Shown one piece after another: positions 27,735-41,641 of a stretch of 64,000 nucleotides of DNA. Positions within the stretch are counted from its first letter, which is position 1; each line of letters opens with the position of its first letter. The translations under genes and the position numbers were made by a program. This DNA is from a virus (Duplodnaviria; Heunggongvirae; Uroviricota; Caudoviricetes): IMG/VR virus record IMGVR_UViG_2565956624_000008; one strand, 5' to 3'. Below the pieces are notes generated by a model. It ran no database searches. It was not told the DNA's origin and worked only from the letters and a program-made list of their open reading frames with translations.

Positions 27735-28622
27735 ATGACCACTATTACCAAAGAGCGACTGCTGACAATCAAGCAGTGGCGCGAAACATACGGACCTGGT
27801 AGCAACGTTGTACTGCCAGCAGAAGAAGCGGAAGAACTGGCACGGATTGCACTGGCATCGTTGGAAGCAAAACCAATAGGTGCATTCCACATTGCAGAAC
27901 AGCAAGTTGACGGCACAAGTGACTACCTCAAGGATGGAGAATGGCCTATTGATAATGGAATTATTGAGGTCTACGCCGCTCCCCCCGTTCCAGTAGTACC
28001 GGAAGAAAAACCAATGCCTAACGCTCTAAGCATGCTTGAAAGAGAGATCACACAACTGATTGGTGATGCGCAGGAAGCCACTGTTACTGGCTATGAGTTA
28101 ATCGCTGAAGCTTGGCGTTTGATGGATGGACAAGACCCTAAAACCAGCGATTGGCATAGCAAGGCTTCGAAGTATTTAAATTCCAATATTGTAGAAAAAG
28201 TTGATGATGACCGTATTGAGGCTGTTAAGGCTGTTTTGCGTAGACTGGCTGGCAACTATCCGGATATTCCGGATAGTTCGGTGCCAGCGCCAGGAAAGGG
28301 CGTCACCGGTGAACGTATCCGCATTAAGCCGCATGTTTATCGCGAACTGGTTAACCGTCTCCACGATACAGCGATCAAGTGTGCTGGCACCCAGCAATTA
28401 CGAGAAAGAATTAGCCGTGTTTTGGGCGACGTTATTACACCAGATCATCATAAACAAGCCGAGAAAAGTGACCTGGAAAGGTGTCACCTTGAGGCGGCAT
28501 TAAACATTAAGCCGGGGCATACGCTTGGCATTATTGATGCACTATTGGTTCATAAGATGGCCAGGGCTTTATTGCCGCTGGTGGCTGAAAAGCATGAGGT
28601 GGACCATGCCAACGAAAGCTGA
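27735..28622 (+). CDS. hypothetical protein (MTTITKER family, long paralog), 295 aa
   Basis: Paralogous N-terminal region to 27091-27459. Confidence 0.5.
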   Translation: MTTITKERLLTIKQWRETYGPGSNVVLPAEEAEELARIALASLEAKPIGAFHIAEQQVDGTSDYLKDGEWPIDNGIIEVYAAPPVPVVPEEKPMPNALSMLEREITQLIGDAQEATVTGYELIAEAWRLMDGQDPKTSDWHSKASKYLNSNIVEKVDDDRIEAVKAVLRRLAGNYPDIPDSSVPAPGKGVTGERIRIKPHVYRELVNRLHDTAIKCAGTQQLRERISRVLGDVITPDHHKQAEKSDLERCHLEAALNIKPGHTLGIIDALLVHKMARALLPLVAEKHEVDHANES

Positions 28623-33771: not shown

Positions 33772-35255
33772 TGGCCAGAAGTTGCGTAACGGATCCACGT
33801 TGGCGCGAGCTGGTGGCGCTATATCGTTATGACTGGATTGCGGCCGCTGATGTTTTGTTCGGCAAAACACCTACCTGGCAGCAGGATCTGATTATTGAGT
33901 CTGTGCAGGAACAGGGTAGCAAGACATCTGTTTCGTCTGGTCACGGTACCGGGAAATCAGACATGACTTCTATCATGATCATGTTGTTCATAATCATGTA
34001 TCCCGGTGCCCGCGCCATTATCGTTGCGAACAAAATTCAGCAGGTAATGACCGGTATATTCAAGTACATCAAGATAAACTGGGCTACTGCCACCAGCCGT
34101 TTTCCATGGCTTGCTGATTATTTTGTTCTGACAGAAACCGCTTTCTATGAGGTTACTGGTAAAGGTGTATGGACTGTAGTACCGAAGGGCTTTCGTCTGG
34201 GAAGTGAAGAAGCTCTCGCCGGTGAACACGCAGATCATCTTCTGTATATTATCGATGAAGCCTCCGGTGTCAGTGATAGAGCTTTCGGTATCATCACTGG
34301 TGCTCTTACCGGACAGGATAACCGCATCTTATTACTGTCACAGCCTACACGCCCAAGCGGCTATTTCTACGATACTCACCATAAACTGGCCAAGCGTCCT
34401 GGTAACCCTGATGGCGTTTATACGGCGATCACGCTTAACAGTGAGGAATCACCGCTGGTAACGCCAGCATTTATCAAAATGAAGCTGGCGGAGTACGGCG
34501 GGCGTGATAACCCTATGTACATGATTAAGGTACGCGGACTATTCCCTAAATCACAGGATGGCTTCCTTCTTGGACGTGATGAGGTTGAACGTGCGACGCG
34601 GCGGAAAGTCAAGATTGCCAAAGGATGGGGCTGGCTTGCATGTGTGGACGTTGCTGGTGGTACGGGACGGGATAAGTCCGTTATCAATATCATGATGGTG
34701 TCCGGCCAGAGAAATAAACGCCGTGTAATCAACTATCGAATGCTGGAATACACAGACGTTACAGAAACGCAGCTTGCCGCCAAAATTTTCGCAGAATGTA
34801 ATCCTGAGCGATTCCCAAATATCACCATAGCGATAGACGGCGATGGCCTGGGTAAAGCAACGGCGGATCTGATGTACGAGTATTATGGTATTACCGTACA
34901 GCGTATACGCTGGGGTAAAAAGATGCATAGCCGTGAAGATAAGAGCCTGTACTTTGATAAGCGTGCTTATGCCAACGTTCAAGCCGCAGAGGCCGTAAAA
35001 TCAGGTCGTATGAGACTGGATAAGGGTAATGAAACTATTGAGGAAGCGTCGAAAATCCCTGTAGGGATTAACTCCGCAGGTCAATGGAAGGTGATGAGTA
35101 AGGAGGATATGAAGAAAAAACTCAACCTGCACTCACCAGACCATTGGGATACATATTGTTTCGCTATGCTGGCGGATTATGTTCCCCAGGATGAAGTGCT
35201 TAGCGTCGAAGACGAAGCGCAGGTTGATGAAGCTCTGGCATGGCTTAATGAATAA
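33771..35255 (+). CDS. pacB: terminase large subunit, 494 aa
   Basis: Start overlaps pacA stop; Walker-A-like SGHGTGKS; size matches P1 PacB. Confidence 0.85.
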
Positions 35256-35279
35256 CTCATTGACCATGCCGGATAGAAA

Positions 35280-36131
35280 CTATTGCGCGCTTTCGGGGTT
35301 GTCGTTTACTGGCTGCCCCTTCTTAGTTTTACGGCTGCGCGTAACTGATGCGGCTGATTTGACCTTTTTCTCTTCGCGAGTGATGGCAATTTGTTTTTTT
35401 ACATTTTCAATATCTGCCAGGCGATATATTTTTGCCTGCGGCCAGCGGTCGCAGATGATCGGTTCTATAGAGTCATAAAGGCTAAATTTTGCTTTCTCGA
35501 ATTCACCGTTGATGATGATTCCATCACGGAGAGTTTCATCGCAGATAAACACACCACACAGCGGCACATGGTAACTAACTGATTTACCATCATTGTAGTT
35601 AGGGCTACTGGAAATGTAATGGACGCGCAGCATTGTTTCGCTAAAGCCGTGTACACGCATACGGAATTTTTCATCCTCCGGGTACTGCTTCATTAGCTCT
35701 TTTGTTGCTTCCAGGTTCTCTATGTATTTCGCACTGTGCTCATTGATCCCCGCGCTTTTCTGGATGCGAATGTCCTTATCAATCAGATGAATAATGCGGC
35801 CAGCGGTCATGTTGACGCTGTTCACAGCTTCTGTCTGATAAGTTGTAACCTTACGCACACCGCGAAGGATGTTAGGCACTGGATATAAAATAGTCTTTGG
35901 GATATTGAGGTCTGGGTACTGTTCCAGTTCCCGCGCCATTAAAGTCCATTTATCAATTTCAGCCTGAATGCTGTCCGTTTCTTTGAACGGCAGAACGACA
36001 ACCGGGCGAACAGGACGACCGTCGCTGGCGGCATCAACGTGTTGGGCGCGTGCAACAGCTTTTTTTAGAAAGAGATCCCTGAAGCTGACGAACTCCTGGT
36101 ACAGTTGTTCGCCGTAGACATAATTTATCAT
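35280..36131 (-). CDS. c1: C1 repressor of lysis, 283 aa
   Basis: N-terminus MINYVYGEQLYQEFVSFRDLF and length match P1 C1; operator 17-mers occur throughout the window. Confidence 0.9.
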   Translation of the reverse strand: MINYVYGEQLYQEFVSFRDLFLKKAVARAQHVDAASDGRPVRPVVVLPFKETDSIQAEIDKWTLMARELEQYPDLNIPKTILYPVPNILRGVRKVTTYQTEAVNSVNMTAGRIIHLIDKDIRIQKSAGINEHSAKYIENLEATKELMKQYPEDEKFRMRVHGFSETMLRVHYISSSPNYNDGKSVSYHVPLCGVFICDETLRDGIIINGEFEKAKFSLYDSIEPIICDRWPQAKIYRLADIENVKKQIAITREEKKVKSAASVTRSRKTKKGQPVNDNPESAQ

Positions 36132-36154
36132 TGATCCTCCTCCAGAATTGACAT

Positions 36155-36195
36155 GGCCAACAACTCACAGCGGATTACACTGGGAGTTGTTGGCC
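36155..36195. promoter_or_regulatory. perfect 12-bp inverted repeat GGCCAACAACTC / GAGTTGTTGGCC with 17-bp spacer between coi and c1
   Basis: Read directly. Confidence 0.5.
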
Positions 36196-36225
36196 ACCAT
36201 TATAGAAGGATCCAACGAAAATAAT

Positions 36226-36242
36226 AGATTTATTAGTGCATT
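36226..36242 (-). promoter_or_regulatory. C1-operator-like site (14/17) between coi and c1
   Basis: AGATTTATTAGTGCATT versus reverse-complement consensus. Confidence 0.5.
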
Positions 36243-36451
36243 TATTGTGAGTCTGGCTGGTTAGTGGCCATGAGATATTCGATTGTGTCAGTGAGATCAT
36301 CCAGGTCGTCTTGGGTGATGCGGTACTCCTGATTGGATATCTTTGAGTAGTGTTCAGCAATGGCGCGGGCAGCGTCGGTTTCGGCGGGGTCTACAGATAA
36401 AGCGTTAGAGCAATGTCTAACGTCGTCGATGGTTGGTGGAATGAAAGCCAT
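36242..36451 (-). CDS. coi: C1 inactivator Coi, 69 aa
   Basis: Small acidic ORF immediately upstream of c1, size as in P1. Confidence 0.75.
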   Translation of the reverse strand: MAFIPPTIDDVRHCSNALSVDPAETDAARAIAEHYSKISNQEYRITQDDLDDLTDTIEYLMATNQPDSQ

Positions 36452-36679
36452 AATTATGCCTCACTGTATTGACAACACAGAGCCTGAAGCTCTGACCTAC
36501 TGTTTCACCCATGATCCATGCTGGGGTAATCTAACAACATTGCGCTGTGTGTAAGATGAGCAATGCATAGCTGTAATGCCGTTGTATAAGGTTTCCCTGT
36601 TTGCTCATTTCCTTCTGAGCCGCTCTACAACGCTGAAGACACATTAAATAGTGAATCCAAAGTCGTATTACGAAACGGC

Positions 36680-36696
36680 GGCAAAACTATAATTTA
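36680..36696 (-). promoter_or_regulatory. C1 operator (16/17)
   Basis: TAATTTATTAGAGCAAT. Confidence 0.65.
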
Positions 36697-36762
36697 TTAG
36701 AGCAATTGTCAAACAACTATGAAAAACAATCCAGTTTTTGGCTGGTGGAGTGGGATTTTTCT

Positions 36763-36779
36763 CTCAAAATTTATTGCTC
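36763..36779 (+). promoter_or_regulatory. C1 operator-like site ATTGCTCTAATAATTCT (15/17)
   Basis: Read directly. Confidence 0.6.
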
Positions 36780-36838
36780 TAATAATTCTTGATTTTTATG
36801 CGCAGCTGGACGTAAACTCCTCTTCAGACCCTTAAGGG

Positions 36839-36976
36839 TTATTGAACATGATCAATTTACCTGTAAATCCATACAGTTCAATACCTTACAGGTCAAATAG
36901 TGATCACTTGATCATTTGATCAAGGTTGCGCTACGTAAAATCTGCGAAATGTTGGCAGTGTTAGTGCTCCAGATTT
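36839..36976. promoter_or_regulatory. cre upstream regulatory region: four TGATCA Dam sites (36839, 36891, 36899, 36907) and an imperfect 17-bp inverted repeat (36918-36934 / 36960-36976)
   Basis: Read directly; cre promoters are known to be Dam-methylation sensitive. Confidence 0.5.
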
Positions 36977-37018
36977 CGCGTAGCGCACTTAGCACCACCA
37001 ATCAATCAGAGGTGAAAA

Positions 37019-37240
37019 ATGGGATATTCAGCTGCTAAAGTGTCCACTCATCTTGAGCTTGAGAAAAACCGTGGTTACTGGCGGGCAAAAGGGTTTGATC
37101 GTGATAGTTGTCAACTGTCATTATCGCGCGGTGAAGAGAAAATAGAACGCACGCGCGGTCGCTGGCGTTTCTATGACGAGAACCATAAACAGGTAAAGGC
37201 AGAGCCGATCCTGTACACTTTACTTAAAACCATTATCTGA
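37019..37240 (+). CDS. small basic protein immediately upstream of cre, 73 aa
   Basis: ORF with RBS; position corresponds to the small ORF preceding cre in P1. Confidence 0.55.
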   Translation: MGYSAAKVSTHLELEKNRGYWRAKGFDRDSCQLSLSRGEEKIERTRGRWRFYDENHKQVKAEPILYTLLKTII

Positions 37241-37247
37241 GTGTTAA

Positions 37248-38279
37248 ATGTCCAATTTACTGACCGTACACCAAAATTTGCCTGCATTACCGGTCGATGC
37301 AACGAGTGATGAGGTTCGCAAGAACCTGATGGACATGTTCAGGGATCGCCAGGCGTTTTCTGAGCATACCTGGAAAATGCTTCTGTCCGTTTGCCGGTCG
37401 TGGGCGGCATGGTGCAAGTTAAATAACCGGAAATGGTTTCCCGCAGAACCTGAAGATGTTCGCGATTATCTTCTATATCTTCAGGCGCGCGGTCTGGCAG
37501 TGAAAACTATCCAGCAACATTTGGGCCAGCTAAATATGCTTCATCGTCGGTCCGGGCTGCCACGACCAAGTGACAGCAATGCTGTTTCACTGGTCATGCG
37601 ACGGATCCGAAAAGAAAACGTTGATGCCGGTGAGCGTGCAAAACAGGCGCTGGCGTTCGAACGCACTGATTTCGACCAGGTTCGTTCACTCATGGAAAAT
37701 AGCGATCGCTGCCAGGATATACGTAATCTGGCATTTCTGGGGATTGCTTATAACACCCTGTTGCGTATAGCCGAAATTTCTAGGATCAGAGTTAAAGATA
37801 TCTCGCGTACTGACGGTGGGAGAATGTTAATCCATATTGGCAGAACGAAAACGCTGGTTAGCACCGCTGGTGTAGAGAAGGCACTTAGTCTGGGGGTAAC
37901 TAAACTGGTTGAGCGATGGATTTCTGTCTCTGGTGTGGCTGATGATCCGAATAACTACTTGTTTTGCCGTGTCAGAAAAAATGGTGTTGCCGCGCCATCT
38001 GCCACCAGCCAGCTATCAACTCGCGCCCTGGAAGGGATTTTTGAAGCAACTCACCGATTGATTTACGGGGCTAAGGATGACTCTGGCCAGAGATACCTGG
38101 CCTGGTCTGGACACAGTGCCCGTGTCGGAGCCGCGCGAGATATGGCCCGCGCCGGAGTTTCAATACCGGAGATCATGCAAGCTGGTGGCTGGACCAACGT
38201 AAATATTGTCATGAACTACATTCGTAACCTGGATAGTGAAACGGGGGCAATGGTGCGCCTGCTGGAAGATGGCGATTAG
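37248..38279 (+). CDS. cre: Cre tyrosine site-specific recombinase, 343 aa
   Basis: Essentially identical to P1 Cre from MSNLLTVHQNLPALPVDATSDEVRKNLMDMF to MVRLLEDGD. Confidence 0.97.
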   Translation: MSNLLTVHQNLPALPVDATSDEVRKNLMDMFRDRQAFSEHTWKMLLSVCRSWAAWCKLNNRKWFPAEPEDVRDYLLYLQARGLAVKTIQQHLGQLNMLHRRSGLPRPSDSNAVSLVMRRIRKENVDAGERAKQALAFERTDFDQVRSLMENSDRCQDIRNLAFLGIAYNTLLRIAEISRIRVKDISRTDGGRMLIHIGRTKTLVSTAGVEKALSLGVTKLVERWISVSGVADDPNNYLFCRVRKNGVAAPSATSQLSTRALEGIFEATHRLIYGAKDDSGQRYLAWSGHSARVGAARDMARAGVSIPEIMQAGGWTNVNIVMNYIRNLDSETGAMVRLLEDGD

Positions 38280-40333: not shown

Positions 40334-41641
40334 ATGAGCGAATATGTTGAGTTAGCATACGCTGCCGCTACAAGCAGGCTTTGTCTATTTACCGGGACTG
40401 GCTTTTCAAAGGCAGTCTCGAACGGTGAAGCTCCAACGTGGAAGGAACTATTAAAAAAAGTTTGCAGCAAAGTTCACAATGCCAAAAAGTTGGAAGACAC
40501 GTTATTCCCTGATGATAAACCACCAGCACTGAGTCTTGAAGAAGCCGCACAAATACTATCTTTGAAGCTCAATATTGAGGGTAAGTCGATTTATGATGAA
40601 ATTGTTGACATCATATCTCCAATTCAACTTGGAGAAGACATATCAAATATAAAAGATTTTTTCCAAAAAAACTCATTCCGTGTCATTACAACAAATTATG
40701 ACAAGTTGGCTGAATGCTTGGTTGGAGATGAAAGTGTGCAGTCTATCACGCCCGGCCTGCCAATTCCAAAGTATCCATCCAAGGTGAAAATATATCATGT
40801 TCATGGTTCTATTGATTCGCCAAAAAATATGATTGTCACTTCAGATGATTACTTCAGATTTATAAATTCCGATACTTATTTTTCACGAAAACTTAGTACG
40901 ATGCTGCATGAAAATACAGTTGCGATATTAGGGTATTCTTTAAGCGACACAAATCTTAAAGCAATTATAAATGACTATAAAAAATTTTCGAAAAATAATG
41001 CCCTGTGCTCTAATATCTTTTTGATATCTCGCAACAAAGTAAGTCAAGATATGAAGGATTATTACTTCTATTGCTTTGGTATAAGGGTAATTGACAATAC
41101 AGAAATAGATTGTTTCTTTAGTCGATTAAGTTATAAGATTTCTCTCATTAAAGACATCATTGAAAGAGCGCGCGAAAATATCAGAAAAGTTGTTTCGGGG
41201 GCTTACACTTATAAAAATGAATATCTTAAATTAGAGGATTCATTTTATCAAATTATATCATCAATTATATCGGAAGGTTTAGATTGGAATGATGATAAAG
41301 TCGTTTCTCTTTTCGAAAGGATAATAGAAAAAAAGAGAAAGTTAACAAGGAATAACGGAGCGTGGGAGCAATATGAACAGTTGGCAAAATGGCTTATATA
41401 TTTTGGAAGCATCATAGAGGTTAGCAATACTAAGTATGAAAAAACATATTTAGACGCAGTTGAATACTCGATGGGTCATATGAGTAAAGAAAGGAATTGG
41501 GGAGTTTCTTGGCATGCTTACAGAGCTTGGGAAACACGATGGCCTGCAATAATTGCCTCAAATAGATTAATGATAAAAAACCACATTGAAACATTAGGCA
41601 CCTTGAAGGACGCCAACCTTATAGTTAAGAATATAGTGTAA
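40334..41641 (+). CDS. SIR2-family (SIR2_2-like) protein with uncharacterised helical C-terminal domain, 435 aa; candidate NAD-consuming defence effector
   Basis: Motifs LFTGTGFSKA, ITTNYDKL, YHVHGS, ILGYSLSD; GGAG RBS; markedly AT-rich versus flanks. Confidence 0.85.
   Translation: MSEYVELAYAAATSRLCLFTGTGFSKAVSNGEAPTWKELLKKVCSKVHNAKKLEDTLFPDDKPPALSLEEAAQILSLKLNIEGKSIYDEIVDIISPIQLGEDISNIKDFFQKNSFRVITTNYDKLAECLVGDESVQSITPGLPIPKYPSKVKIYHVHGSIDSPKNMIVTSDDYFRFINSDTYFSRKLSTMLHENTVAILGYSLSDTNLKAIINDYKKFSKNNALCSNIFLISRNKVSQDMKDYYFYCFGIRVIDNTEIDCFFSRLSYKISLIKDIIERARENIRKVVSGAYTYKNEYLKLEDSFYQIISSIISEGLDWNDDKVVSLFERIIEKKRKLTRNNGAWEQYEQLAKWLIYFGSIIEVSNTKYEKTYLDAVEYSMGHMSKERNWGVSWHAYRAWETRWPAIIASNRLMIKNHIETLGTLKDANLIVKNIV

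What the first reader, a model, noticed from the sequence alone, without database searches (positions are those of the whole stretch)
36452..37247. No canonical loxP seen upstream of a near-identical Cre
Cre matches P1 Cre almost residue for residue, and the upstream TGATCA cluster typical of its Dam-sensitive promoters is present. By eye I could not find the 34-bp loxP sequence (ATAACTTCGTATA-8 bp-TATACGAAGTTAT) in the c1-to-cre interval, or elsewhere in the window. The region instead has an imperfect 17-bp inverted repeat with a 25-bp spacer (36918-36976). This may be my scanning error or a misremembered loxP position.
Basis: partly seen in the sequence, partly recalled or inferred. Interest (0 to 1): 0.5.

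Follow-up and report, generated by a model that had tools for sequence, protein, structure and literature searches.

The report
loxP removed by linker-trimming artefact
The missing loxP site next to an intact P1-type Cre gene is almost certainly not biology: the 36 missing bases are exactly the part of the native sequence that matches a loxP-based sequencing linker, and they were cut out of this one batch of assemblies, so the record rather than the plasmid lacks loxP.

Summary
The window has no loxP (none at up to 3 mismatches), although it carries a complete P1-type immC–cra–cre region with Cre 342/343 identical to P1 Cre. The reason is a clean 36-bp gap between window 36830 and 36831, exactly where P1 and hundreds of P1-like plasmids carry lox.

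The missing bases (TA plus the 34-bp loxP) have no microhomology. They equal the longest exact match between the native sequence and the 454/Cre-Lox mate-pair linker CGTAATAACTTCGTATAGCATACATTATACGAAGTTATACGA. Where the base after loxP is A instead of C, the match is 37 bp, and the two loxP-less relatives of that type lack 37 bp.

Only four public sequences show the gap: the window's source (GCA_000485695.1, KI522140.1), a neighbouring assembly (GCA_000485635.1), and two IMG genomes with adjacent IDs. The same plasmid sequenced elsewhere (0 mismatches over 20.9 kb) has loxP. No complete plasmid, phage or E. coli genome record has either junction, whereas 329 plasmid records have the native one.

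Verdict: a linker/adaptor-removal artefact, not a lox-less Cre system.

The parts
36830..36831 (.). Junction of the 36-bp gap. TAATAACTTCGTATAGCATACATTATACGAAGTTAT (TA plus the 34-bp loxP) is missing between these two bases (CAGACC|CTTAAGGG). It corresponds to about 61432/61433 of scaffold KI522140.1.
   Evidence: Alignment A1. L050, L051, L009 and L006 are identical on both flanks but carry the 36 bp. The gap equals the longest common substring with the 454/Cre-Lox linker.
36773..36818 (+). C1 operator Oc1e (36773-36789, ATTGCTCTAATAATTCT) and promoter P4cre (-35 TTGATT at 36789-36794; -10 TAAACT at 36813-36818), immediately upstream of where lox should be.
   Evidence: Mapped from the P1 AF234172 annotation. 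Sequences checked.
36850..36881 (.). Dam site 1 (36850-36853), LexA box (36859-36878, CTGT-N8-ACAG) and the P2coi promoter on the minus strand (36854-36881), immediately downstream of where lox should be.
   Evidence: P1 annotation; sequence check.
36901..36941 (+). TGATCA/GATC cluster (36901, 36909, 36917) overlapping promoter P3cre (= pR1): -35 TTGATC at 36916-36921, -10 TAAAAT at 36936-36941. This is the Dam-sensitive cre promoter.
   Evidence: Annotations of X03453 and AF234172.
36927..36987 (.). Conserved imperfect inverted repeat: arms 36927-36944 and 36970-36987, 25-nt spacer. It belongs to the cre/cra regulatory region and is not a lox substitute.
   Evidence: Identical in 25 loci including loxP-bearing ones, with conserved arms and a variable spacer. 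RNA fold -28.4 kcal/mol, z = -4.1.
37019..37240 (+). cra (ORF1, 73 aa, Cre-associated), containing promoters P2cre (37095-37124) and P1cre (37212-37236).
37248..38279 (+). cre, 343 aa, identical to P1 Cre except A178S.
   Evidence: The same exact protein is on at least 1000 contigs.
36242..36644 (-). coi (36242-36451), imcB (36417-36512) and imcA (36531-36644): the immC side of the interval.
   Evidence: Coordinates transferred from the phiW39 annotation (L002), using the 99.7% identical ungapped alignment of L002 1-1879 to window 34952-36830.

Best explanation
The plasmid in the sequenced strain almost certainly has a normal loxP. The deposited sequence lost it during data processing. Native loxP plus its two upstream bases is identical to the core of the Roche 454 / Cre-Lox mate-pair circularisation linker. 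A step in this submitter's pipeline recognised that match by local alignment and cut it out, joining the flanks. That step could have been read-level linker removal with concatenation, or post-assembly excision after an adaptor or contamination screen. Shown here: the missing bases are exactly the linker-matching bases; the end point shifts with the flanking polymorphism as that rule predicts; the effect is confined to one batch of assemblies; and the same plasmid has loxP when sequenced elsewhere. Inferred: which software step did it, and that the physical plasmid carries loxP.
For: (1) The gap is 36 bp, TA plus loxP, with no microhomology, so its end points are unambiguous. (2) The linker 5'-CGTAATAACTTCGTATAGCATACATTATACGAAGTTATACGA-3' is documented in PMC5199103 and PMC7038657. 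Its longest common substring with the native sequence is exactly those 36 bp for C-type flanks and 37 bp for A-type flanks. (3) This was predicted before it was seen: A-type loxP-less sequences should lack 37 bp. L005 (P1-type flank) and L058 both have CAGACC|TTAAGGG. A loxP-bearing locus with L058's flank haplotype and an A after loxP exists (L021). The C-type sequences (window/L063 and L004) lack 36 bp. (4) The four loxP-less elements are different plasmids, 97-99% identical to each other, with different markers within 60 bp of the junction. (5) Batch effect: the window is GCA_000485695.1 KI522140.1 (100% over 20,279 bp) and L058 is GCA_000485635.1 KI521826.1. The two IMG/VR cases have adjacent genome IDs, 2565956617 and 2565956626. 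All 38 IMG/VR contigs with native loxP come from other ID ranges (Fisher p = 0.0013). Assemblies from other submitters carrying the same 92-aa gene call all have loxP wherever the region is present (L059, L060, L062, L065). (6) The same plasmid sequenced elsewhere has loxP: L050 (GCA_033038905.1) and L051 (Logan SRR26512816) show 0 mismatches over 20,852 and 12,703 bp and share a protein found on only three contigs in the whole index. L009 is also 100% identical, and L006 has 2 mismatches in 26.7 kb. (7) Neither junction occurs in 72,556 plasmids, 5,426 complete E. coli genomes, 50,697 phage records, GTDB representative genomes or JGI metagenomes. The native 40-mer control hits 329 plasmid records. 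(8) LoxP detection, trimming and splitting is standard for 454 and Cre-Lox Illumina libraries, and a published tool variant removes LoxP and concatenates the flanks (PMC3273786).
Against: I could not see the raw reads, the GenBank assembly comments or the pipeline description, so the step that removed the bases is inferred. I could not show that the two IMG genomes belong to the same submission as the two GCA assemblies; adjacent IDs are only suggestive. The window shows no other processing scars: no Ns and no linker remnants of 11 nt or more. In principle one strain collection could share a biological peculiarity.
Confidence: 0.93

Rival explanations
1. Genuine natural deletion: P1-like plasmids in these strains have really lost loxP, for example by slippage across the loxP palindrome, while keeping an intact cre. 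Such plasmids would be unable to resolve dimers or cyclise through Cre.
For: The sequence as deposited lacks the site. From established knowledge of P1 biology (not tested here), lox- or cre-defective P1 is viable, with less stable plasmid inheritance. The four cases could come from one strain collection.
Against: There is no microhomology at the junction. Four different plasmid backgrounds would each have had to lose precisely the linker-matching bases, 36 bp or 37 bp according to the A/C polymorphism after loxP. A site-specific biological excision would not track identity to a synthetic linker. A plasmid identical over 20.9 kb has loxP. There are zero cases among 329 or more complete plasmid records. 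Cre recombination always regenerates a lox site and cannot excise one.
Confidence: 0.04
2. Cre in this element acts on a different site: the 18-nt inverted repeat at 36927-36987, or a diverged lox elsewhere in the replicon.
For: An inverted repeat with a spacer lies 100 bp downstream of the expected lox position. About 25 kb of the 89.5-kb scaffold lies outside the window.
Against: The repeat is identical in 25 loci that also carry loxP, and it is present in P1. Its 25-nt spacer and arm sequence are unlike lox, and it overlaps the -10 of promoter P3cre. cre DNA is 100% identical to that of loxP-bearing plasmids, and Cre differs from P1 Cre only by A178S, so there is no sign of changed specificity. 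No lox-like site exists in the window at 3 or fewer mismatches.
Confidence: 0.01
3. The reader simply missed loxP or looked in the wrong place.
For: None after checking.
Against: Exact and fuzzy searches find nothing. The P1 annotation places lox in precisely this interval.
Confidence: 0

Closest known systems
Cre/loxP site-specific recombination module of phage-plasmid P1 (Punavirus); region order c1-coi-imcBA-lox-cra-cre-c8
   Same: Gene order, all annotated promoters and operators (Oc1e, P4cre, LexA box, P2coi, Dam sites, P3cre/P2cre/P1cre), Cra (72/73) and Cre (342/343) match P1. The flanks are 100% identical to many P1-like IncY plasmids.
   Different: The 34-bp loxP plus 2 bp is absent from the deposited sequence. 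The evidence indicates this is a property of the record and not of the plasmid.
   Same: The removed bases are exactly the maximal local match to the published linker. The end point follows the flanking polymorphism, and the effect is confined to a batch. Published tools trim, split or excise-and-concatenate at LoxP.
   Different: Here the 'linker' was genuine genomic sequence, because the linker was derived from P1 loxP itself. I found no published description of this particular side effect on P1-like plasmids.

Membership tests
P1-type Cre/loxP module | Cre tyrosine recombinase, 343 aa, near-identical to P1 Cre | tested here: met
   342/343 identical, A178S only. PF00589 is recorded on the identical product in related loci.
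P1-type Cre/loxP module | 34-bp loxP (13-bp inverted repeats around the 8-bp spacer GCATACAT) about 0.4 kb upstream of cre, between P4cre and Dam site 1 | tested here: not met
   Absent at 3 or fewer mismatches. A 36-bp gap lies at the expected place. It is not met in the record; I judge this an artefact.
P1-type Cre/loxP module | Context: c1-coi-imcB-imcA upstream, cra-cre-c8 downstream, with Dam-site-containing cre promoters | tested here: met
P1-type Cre/loxP module | Cre-dependent recombination at the site in vivo or in vitro | not testable with these tools
   Needs an experiment.
Linker/adaptor-excision artefact | Missing bases equal the maximal exact match to a known synthetic linker | tested here: met
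   Longest common substring is 36 bp for C-type flanks and 37 bp for A-type flanks, equal to the observed gaps. The linker sequence is taken from PMC5199103 and PMC7038657.
Linker/adaptor-excision artefact | Restricted to one production batch or submitter and absent from independent assemblies | tested here: met
   The cases are GCA_000485695.1 and GCA_000485635.1 plus IMG 2565956617 and 2565956626. There are 0 of 38 other IMG/VR contigs, 0 in PLSDB, RefSeq complete E. coli and INPHARED, and 329 native hits as control. That the IMG pair and the GCA pair share one submitter is inferred, not shown.
Linker/adaptor-excision artefact | The same replicon sequenced independently carries the site | tested here: met
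   L050 and L051 are 100.000% identical on both flanks and have loxP. The same holds for L009, and for L006 at 2 mismatches in 26.7 kb.
Linker/adaptor-excision artefact | Raw reads of the same strain contain the site | not testable with these tools
   No read-level assembly of the source strain is in the index. The marker protein is on only three contigs, none of them a Logan assembly of that strain.

The most novel reading that the evidence does not exclude
A set of clinical E. coli isolates carries P1-like phage-plasmids that have truly and repeatedly lost loxP while keeping an intact, expressed Cre. That would imply either selection against lox, or a Cre function independent of loxP.
Probability: 0.04. 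Interest if true: 0.45.

Novelty: not a real feature. Interest (0 to 1): 0.12.

Why it matters
Biologically this is ordinary: a standard P1-type Cre/lox module. The practical point is a warning about data. Because commercial mate-pair linkers were built from P1 loxP, linker or adaptor cleaning can silently delete the real loxP from assemblies of P1-like phage-plasmids. These elements are common carriers of resistance genes in Enterobacteriaceae. Surveys of lox sites, of Cre/lox co-occurrence or of 'orphan' recombinases in public draft genomes can therefore produce false lox-less elements. At least four records are affected: KI522140.1, KI521826.1 and two IMG/VR UViGs.

Tried and rejected
(a) Searches for a degenerate lox or half-sites in the window found nothing beyond chance.
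(b) I considered an assembly collapse or scaffold gap. The window has no Ns and no linker remnants, so the junction lies inside contiguous sequence.
(c) I considered editing of a known complete plasmid. No collection record matches the window at 99% or more over 24 kb, and the window proved to be KI522140.1.
(d) 454-type homopolymer errors as a clue to the platform: none. The window shows 0-2 mismatches and no indels against L050, L006 and L009 over 20-27 kb, so the platform cannot be inferred this way.
(e) An exact look-up of the 38-aa ORF that ends at the junction, meant to list all loxP-less assemblies, found no such gene on record.
(f) A look-up through DarA to find the JGI/IMG record collapsed all places into one.
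(g) Literature searches for the IMG IDs, the protein accession, the assembly accession, and for reports of loxP-less P1-like plasmids or this artefact found nothing relevant.
(h) Scans of GTDB representative genomes and JGI metagenomes for both junction types gave 0 hits.

Full report
**Observation**

The interval 36452-37247 is the P1-type region between the immunity genes (c1 35280-36131, coi 36242-36451, imcB, imcA, all on the minus strand) and cra (37019-37240) and cre (37248-38279).

- A pattern search for ATAACTTCGTATA-N8-TATACGAAGTTAT finds nothing in the 64-kb window on either strand with up to 3 mismatches.
- The single half-site hit at 2 or fewer mismatches is what chance predicts.
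- Cre differs from P1 Cre only by A178S, and Cra only by T5A.
- The TGATCA/GATC cluster is present at 36849-36922. It coincides with the Dam sites and promoter P3cre (= pR1) annotated in P1.
- The inverted repeat is real but lies at 36927-36944 / 36970-36987, not 36918-36976.

**What is there instead**

I aligned the window with P1 (X03453), phiW39 and the otherwise 100% identical plasmid pCREC-629_2. The window lacks exactly 36 bp, TAATAACTTCGTATAGCATACATTATACGAAGTTAT (TA plus loxP), between 36830 and 36831: CAGACC|CTTAAGGG.

Neither end of the gap can be shifted, so there is no microhomology. The neighbouring P1 features sit at their normal distances on either side of the gap:
- upstream: operator Oc1e and promoter P4cre;
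- downstream: Dam site 1, the LexA box and P2coi.

**Hypothesis and test**

The Roche 454 Titanium / Cre-Lox mate-pair circularisation linker is 5'-CGTAATAACTTCGTATAGCATACATTATACGAAGTTATACGA-3'. This is confirmed in PMC5199103 and PMC7038657.

- Its longest common substring with the native P1-like sequence is exactly the missing 36 bp when the base after loxP is C (the window's lineage).
- It is 37 bp (…GTTATA) when that base is A, as in P1 itself.

The artefact idea therefore predicted that any loxP-less sequence with an A-type flank should lack 37 bp.

A scan of IMG/VR for both junction types returned two contigs:
- L004, C-type, 36-bp gap;
- L005, with P1-reference-type flanks and the junction CAGACC|TTAAGGG, which is the predicted 37-bp gap.

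A later look-up found a fourth case, L058, also of the 37-bp type. A loxP-bearing contig with L058's exact flank haplotype and an A after loxP exists (L021).

The four loxP-less elements are distinct plasmids, 97-99% identical to one another. They carry different markers within 60 bp of the junction. One inherited deletion therefore does not explain them.

**Batch restriction**

An unusual 92-aa gene call led to the source. The window is GCA_000485695.1 scaffold KI522140.1, at about positions 24603-88602, with 100.000% identity over 20,279 bp including the junction.

- L058 is GCA_000485635.1 KI521826.1, a neighbouring assembly accession with the same type of scaffold accession.
- The two IMG/VR cases have genome IDs 2565956617 and 2565956626.
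- All 38 IMG/VR contigs with the native site come from other ID ranges (Fisher p = 0.0013).
- Assemblies from other submitters retrieved in the same look-up (L059, L060, L062, L065) all carry loxP.
- Neither junction occurs in PLSDB, in 5,426 complete E. coli genomes, in INPHARED phages, in GTDB representative genomes or in JGI metagenomes.
- A native 40-mer control of the same design hits 329 plasmid records.

**The same plasmid elsewhere has loxP**

A 295-aa protein of the window (27735-28622) occurs on only three contigs of the whole index. One of them is the source scaffold.

| Locus | Source | Match to the window | loxP |
|---|---|---|---|
| L050 | GCA_033038905.1 | 0 mismatches over 19,096 + 1,756 bp | intact |
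| L051 | Logan assembly of SRR26512816 | 0 mismatches over 12.7 kb | intact |
| L009 | Logan SRR5120221 | 100% identical on both flanks | present |
| L006 | GCA_039719055.1 | 2 mismatches in 26.7 kb | present |

L050 and L051 are the other two contigs that carry the 295-aa protein. In every case the 36 bp is the only structural difference.

**Mechanism**

- Shown: the deleted bases equal the local-alignment match to the linker; the end point tracks the A/C polymorphism; the effect is confined to a batch; independent sequencing of the same replicon has the site.
- Inferred: a pipeline step recognised the native loxP as linker and excised it. PMC3273786 documents that LoxP is computationally detected and trimmed, or reads are split at it, in 454 and Cre-Lox Illumina libraries. 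It also describes a tool variant that removes LoxP and concatenates the flanks. Post-assembly excision of a span flagged by an adaptor screen would give the same result.

The end points stop exactly at the first mismatch on each side. This fits a local aligner of the BLAST or cross_match type better than error-tolerant whole-adapter trimming. I could not determine which step was responsible.

**Rivals**

- *A real deletion.* This would need four backgrounds each to lose precisely the bases that happen to match a synthetic oligonucleotide, without microhomology, and only in this batch. Cre itself cannot excise a lox site. I give it about 4%.
- *An alternative recombination site, such as the inverted repeat.* The repeat is identical in loxP-bearing relatives and in P1, it overlaps the -10 of P3cre, and the cre DNA is identical to that of loxP-bearing plasmids. 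I give it about 1%.

**Comparison with what is known, and novelty**

The locus is an ordinary member of the P1 Cre/lox module in every tested respect except the site itself, and the absence of the site is a property of the record. I found no published note of this side effect. It is worth flagging to curators, but it is not a biological finding.

Interest is low (0.12). The classification is 'not a real feature'. The most novel reading not excluded is true, recurrent loss of loxP with Cre retained. I put it at about 4% probability, with moderate interest if true.

Noticed in passing
window 36927-36987: An 18-nt imperfect inverted repeat (TGCGCTACGTAAAATCTG / CAGATTTCGCGTAGCGCA, 25-nt spacer) overlaps the -10 of promoter P3cre. 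The arms are almost invariant across 45 P1-like loci while the spacer varies. As RNA it folds at -28.4 kcal/mol (z = -4.1). It is not annotated in the P1 reference. It may be an operator or a 5'-leader hairpin for transcripts from P4cre.
   Followed up: partly
window 36901-36906: The window and most P1-like plasmids have a third TGATCA (an extra Dam site) where P1 itself has TGACCA. This adds one more methylation site just upstream of the P3cre -35.
   Followed up: no
window 40334-41641: A SIR2_2-family gene sits between the darB-side genes and the RecA-dependent nuclease/c8/cre block. In the otherwise near-identical locus L007 the same slot holds a DUF2971 gene, which suggests a swappable defence-gene slot.
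   Followed up: no
window 27735-28622: A 295-aa ORF forms a singleton 90% cluster and is found on only three contigs in the whole protein index. It has no Pfam hit and lies in the variable Ead/Ea22-rich early region.
   Followed up: partly
L061 (GCA_001749045.1 MIWL01000021.1), about 15479-17939: A P1-like neighbourhood (phd/doc, humD) has a different 342-aa tyrosine recombinase and a 345-aa C1-like repressor in another arrangement, with no loxP. It is probably a distinct lineage with its own recombination site.
   Followed up: no
window 36719-36835: A 38-aa ORF ends at the junction. With loxP restored it would read through loxP and give 51 aa. It has never been called as a gene in the index, so it is probably not a gene.
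   Followed up: yes
L062 (GCA_000714895.1), left flank of loxP: A natural variant has GACCTG instead of GACCTA immediately before loxP. In such a sequence the linker match, and hence any artefactual gap, would be 1-2 bp shorter. This gives a further test of the artefact rule.
   Followed up: no
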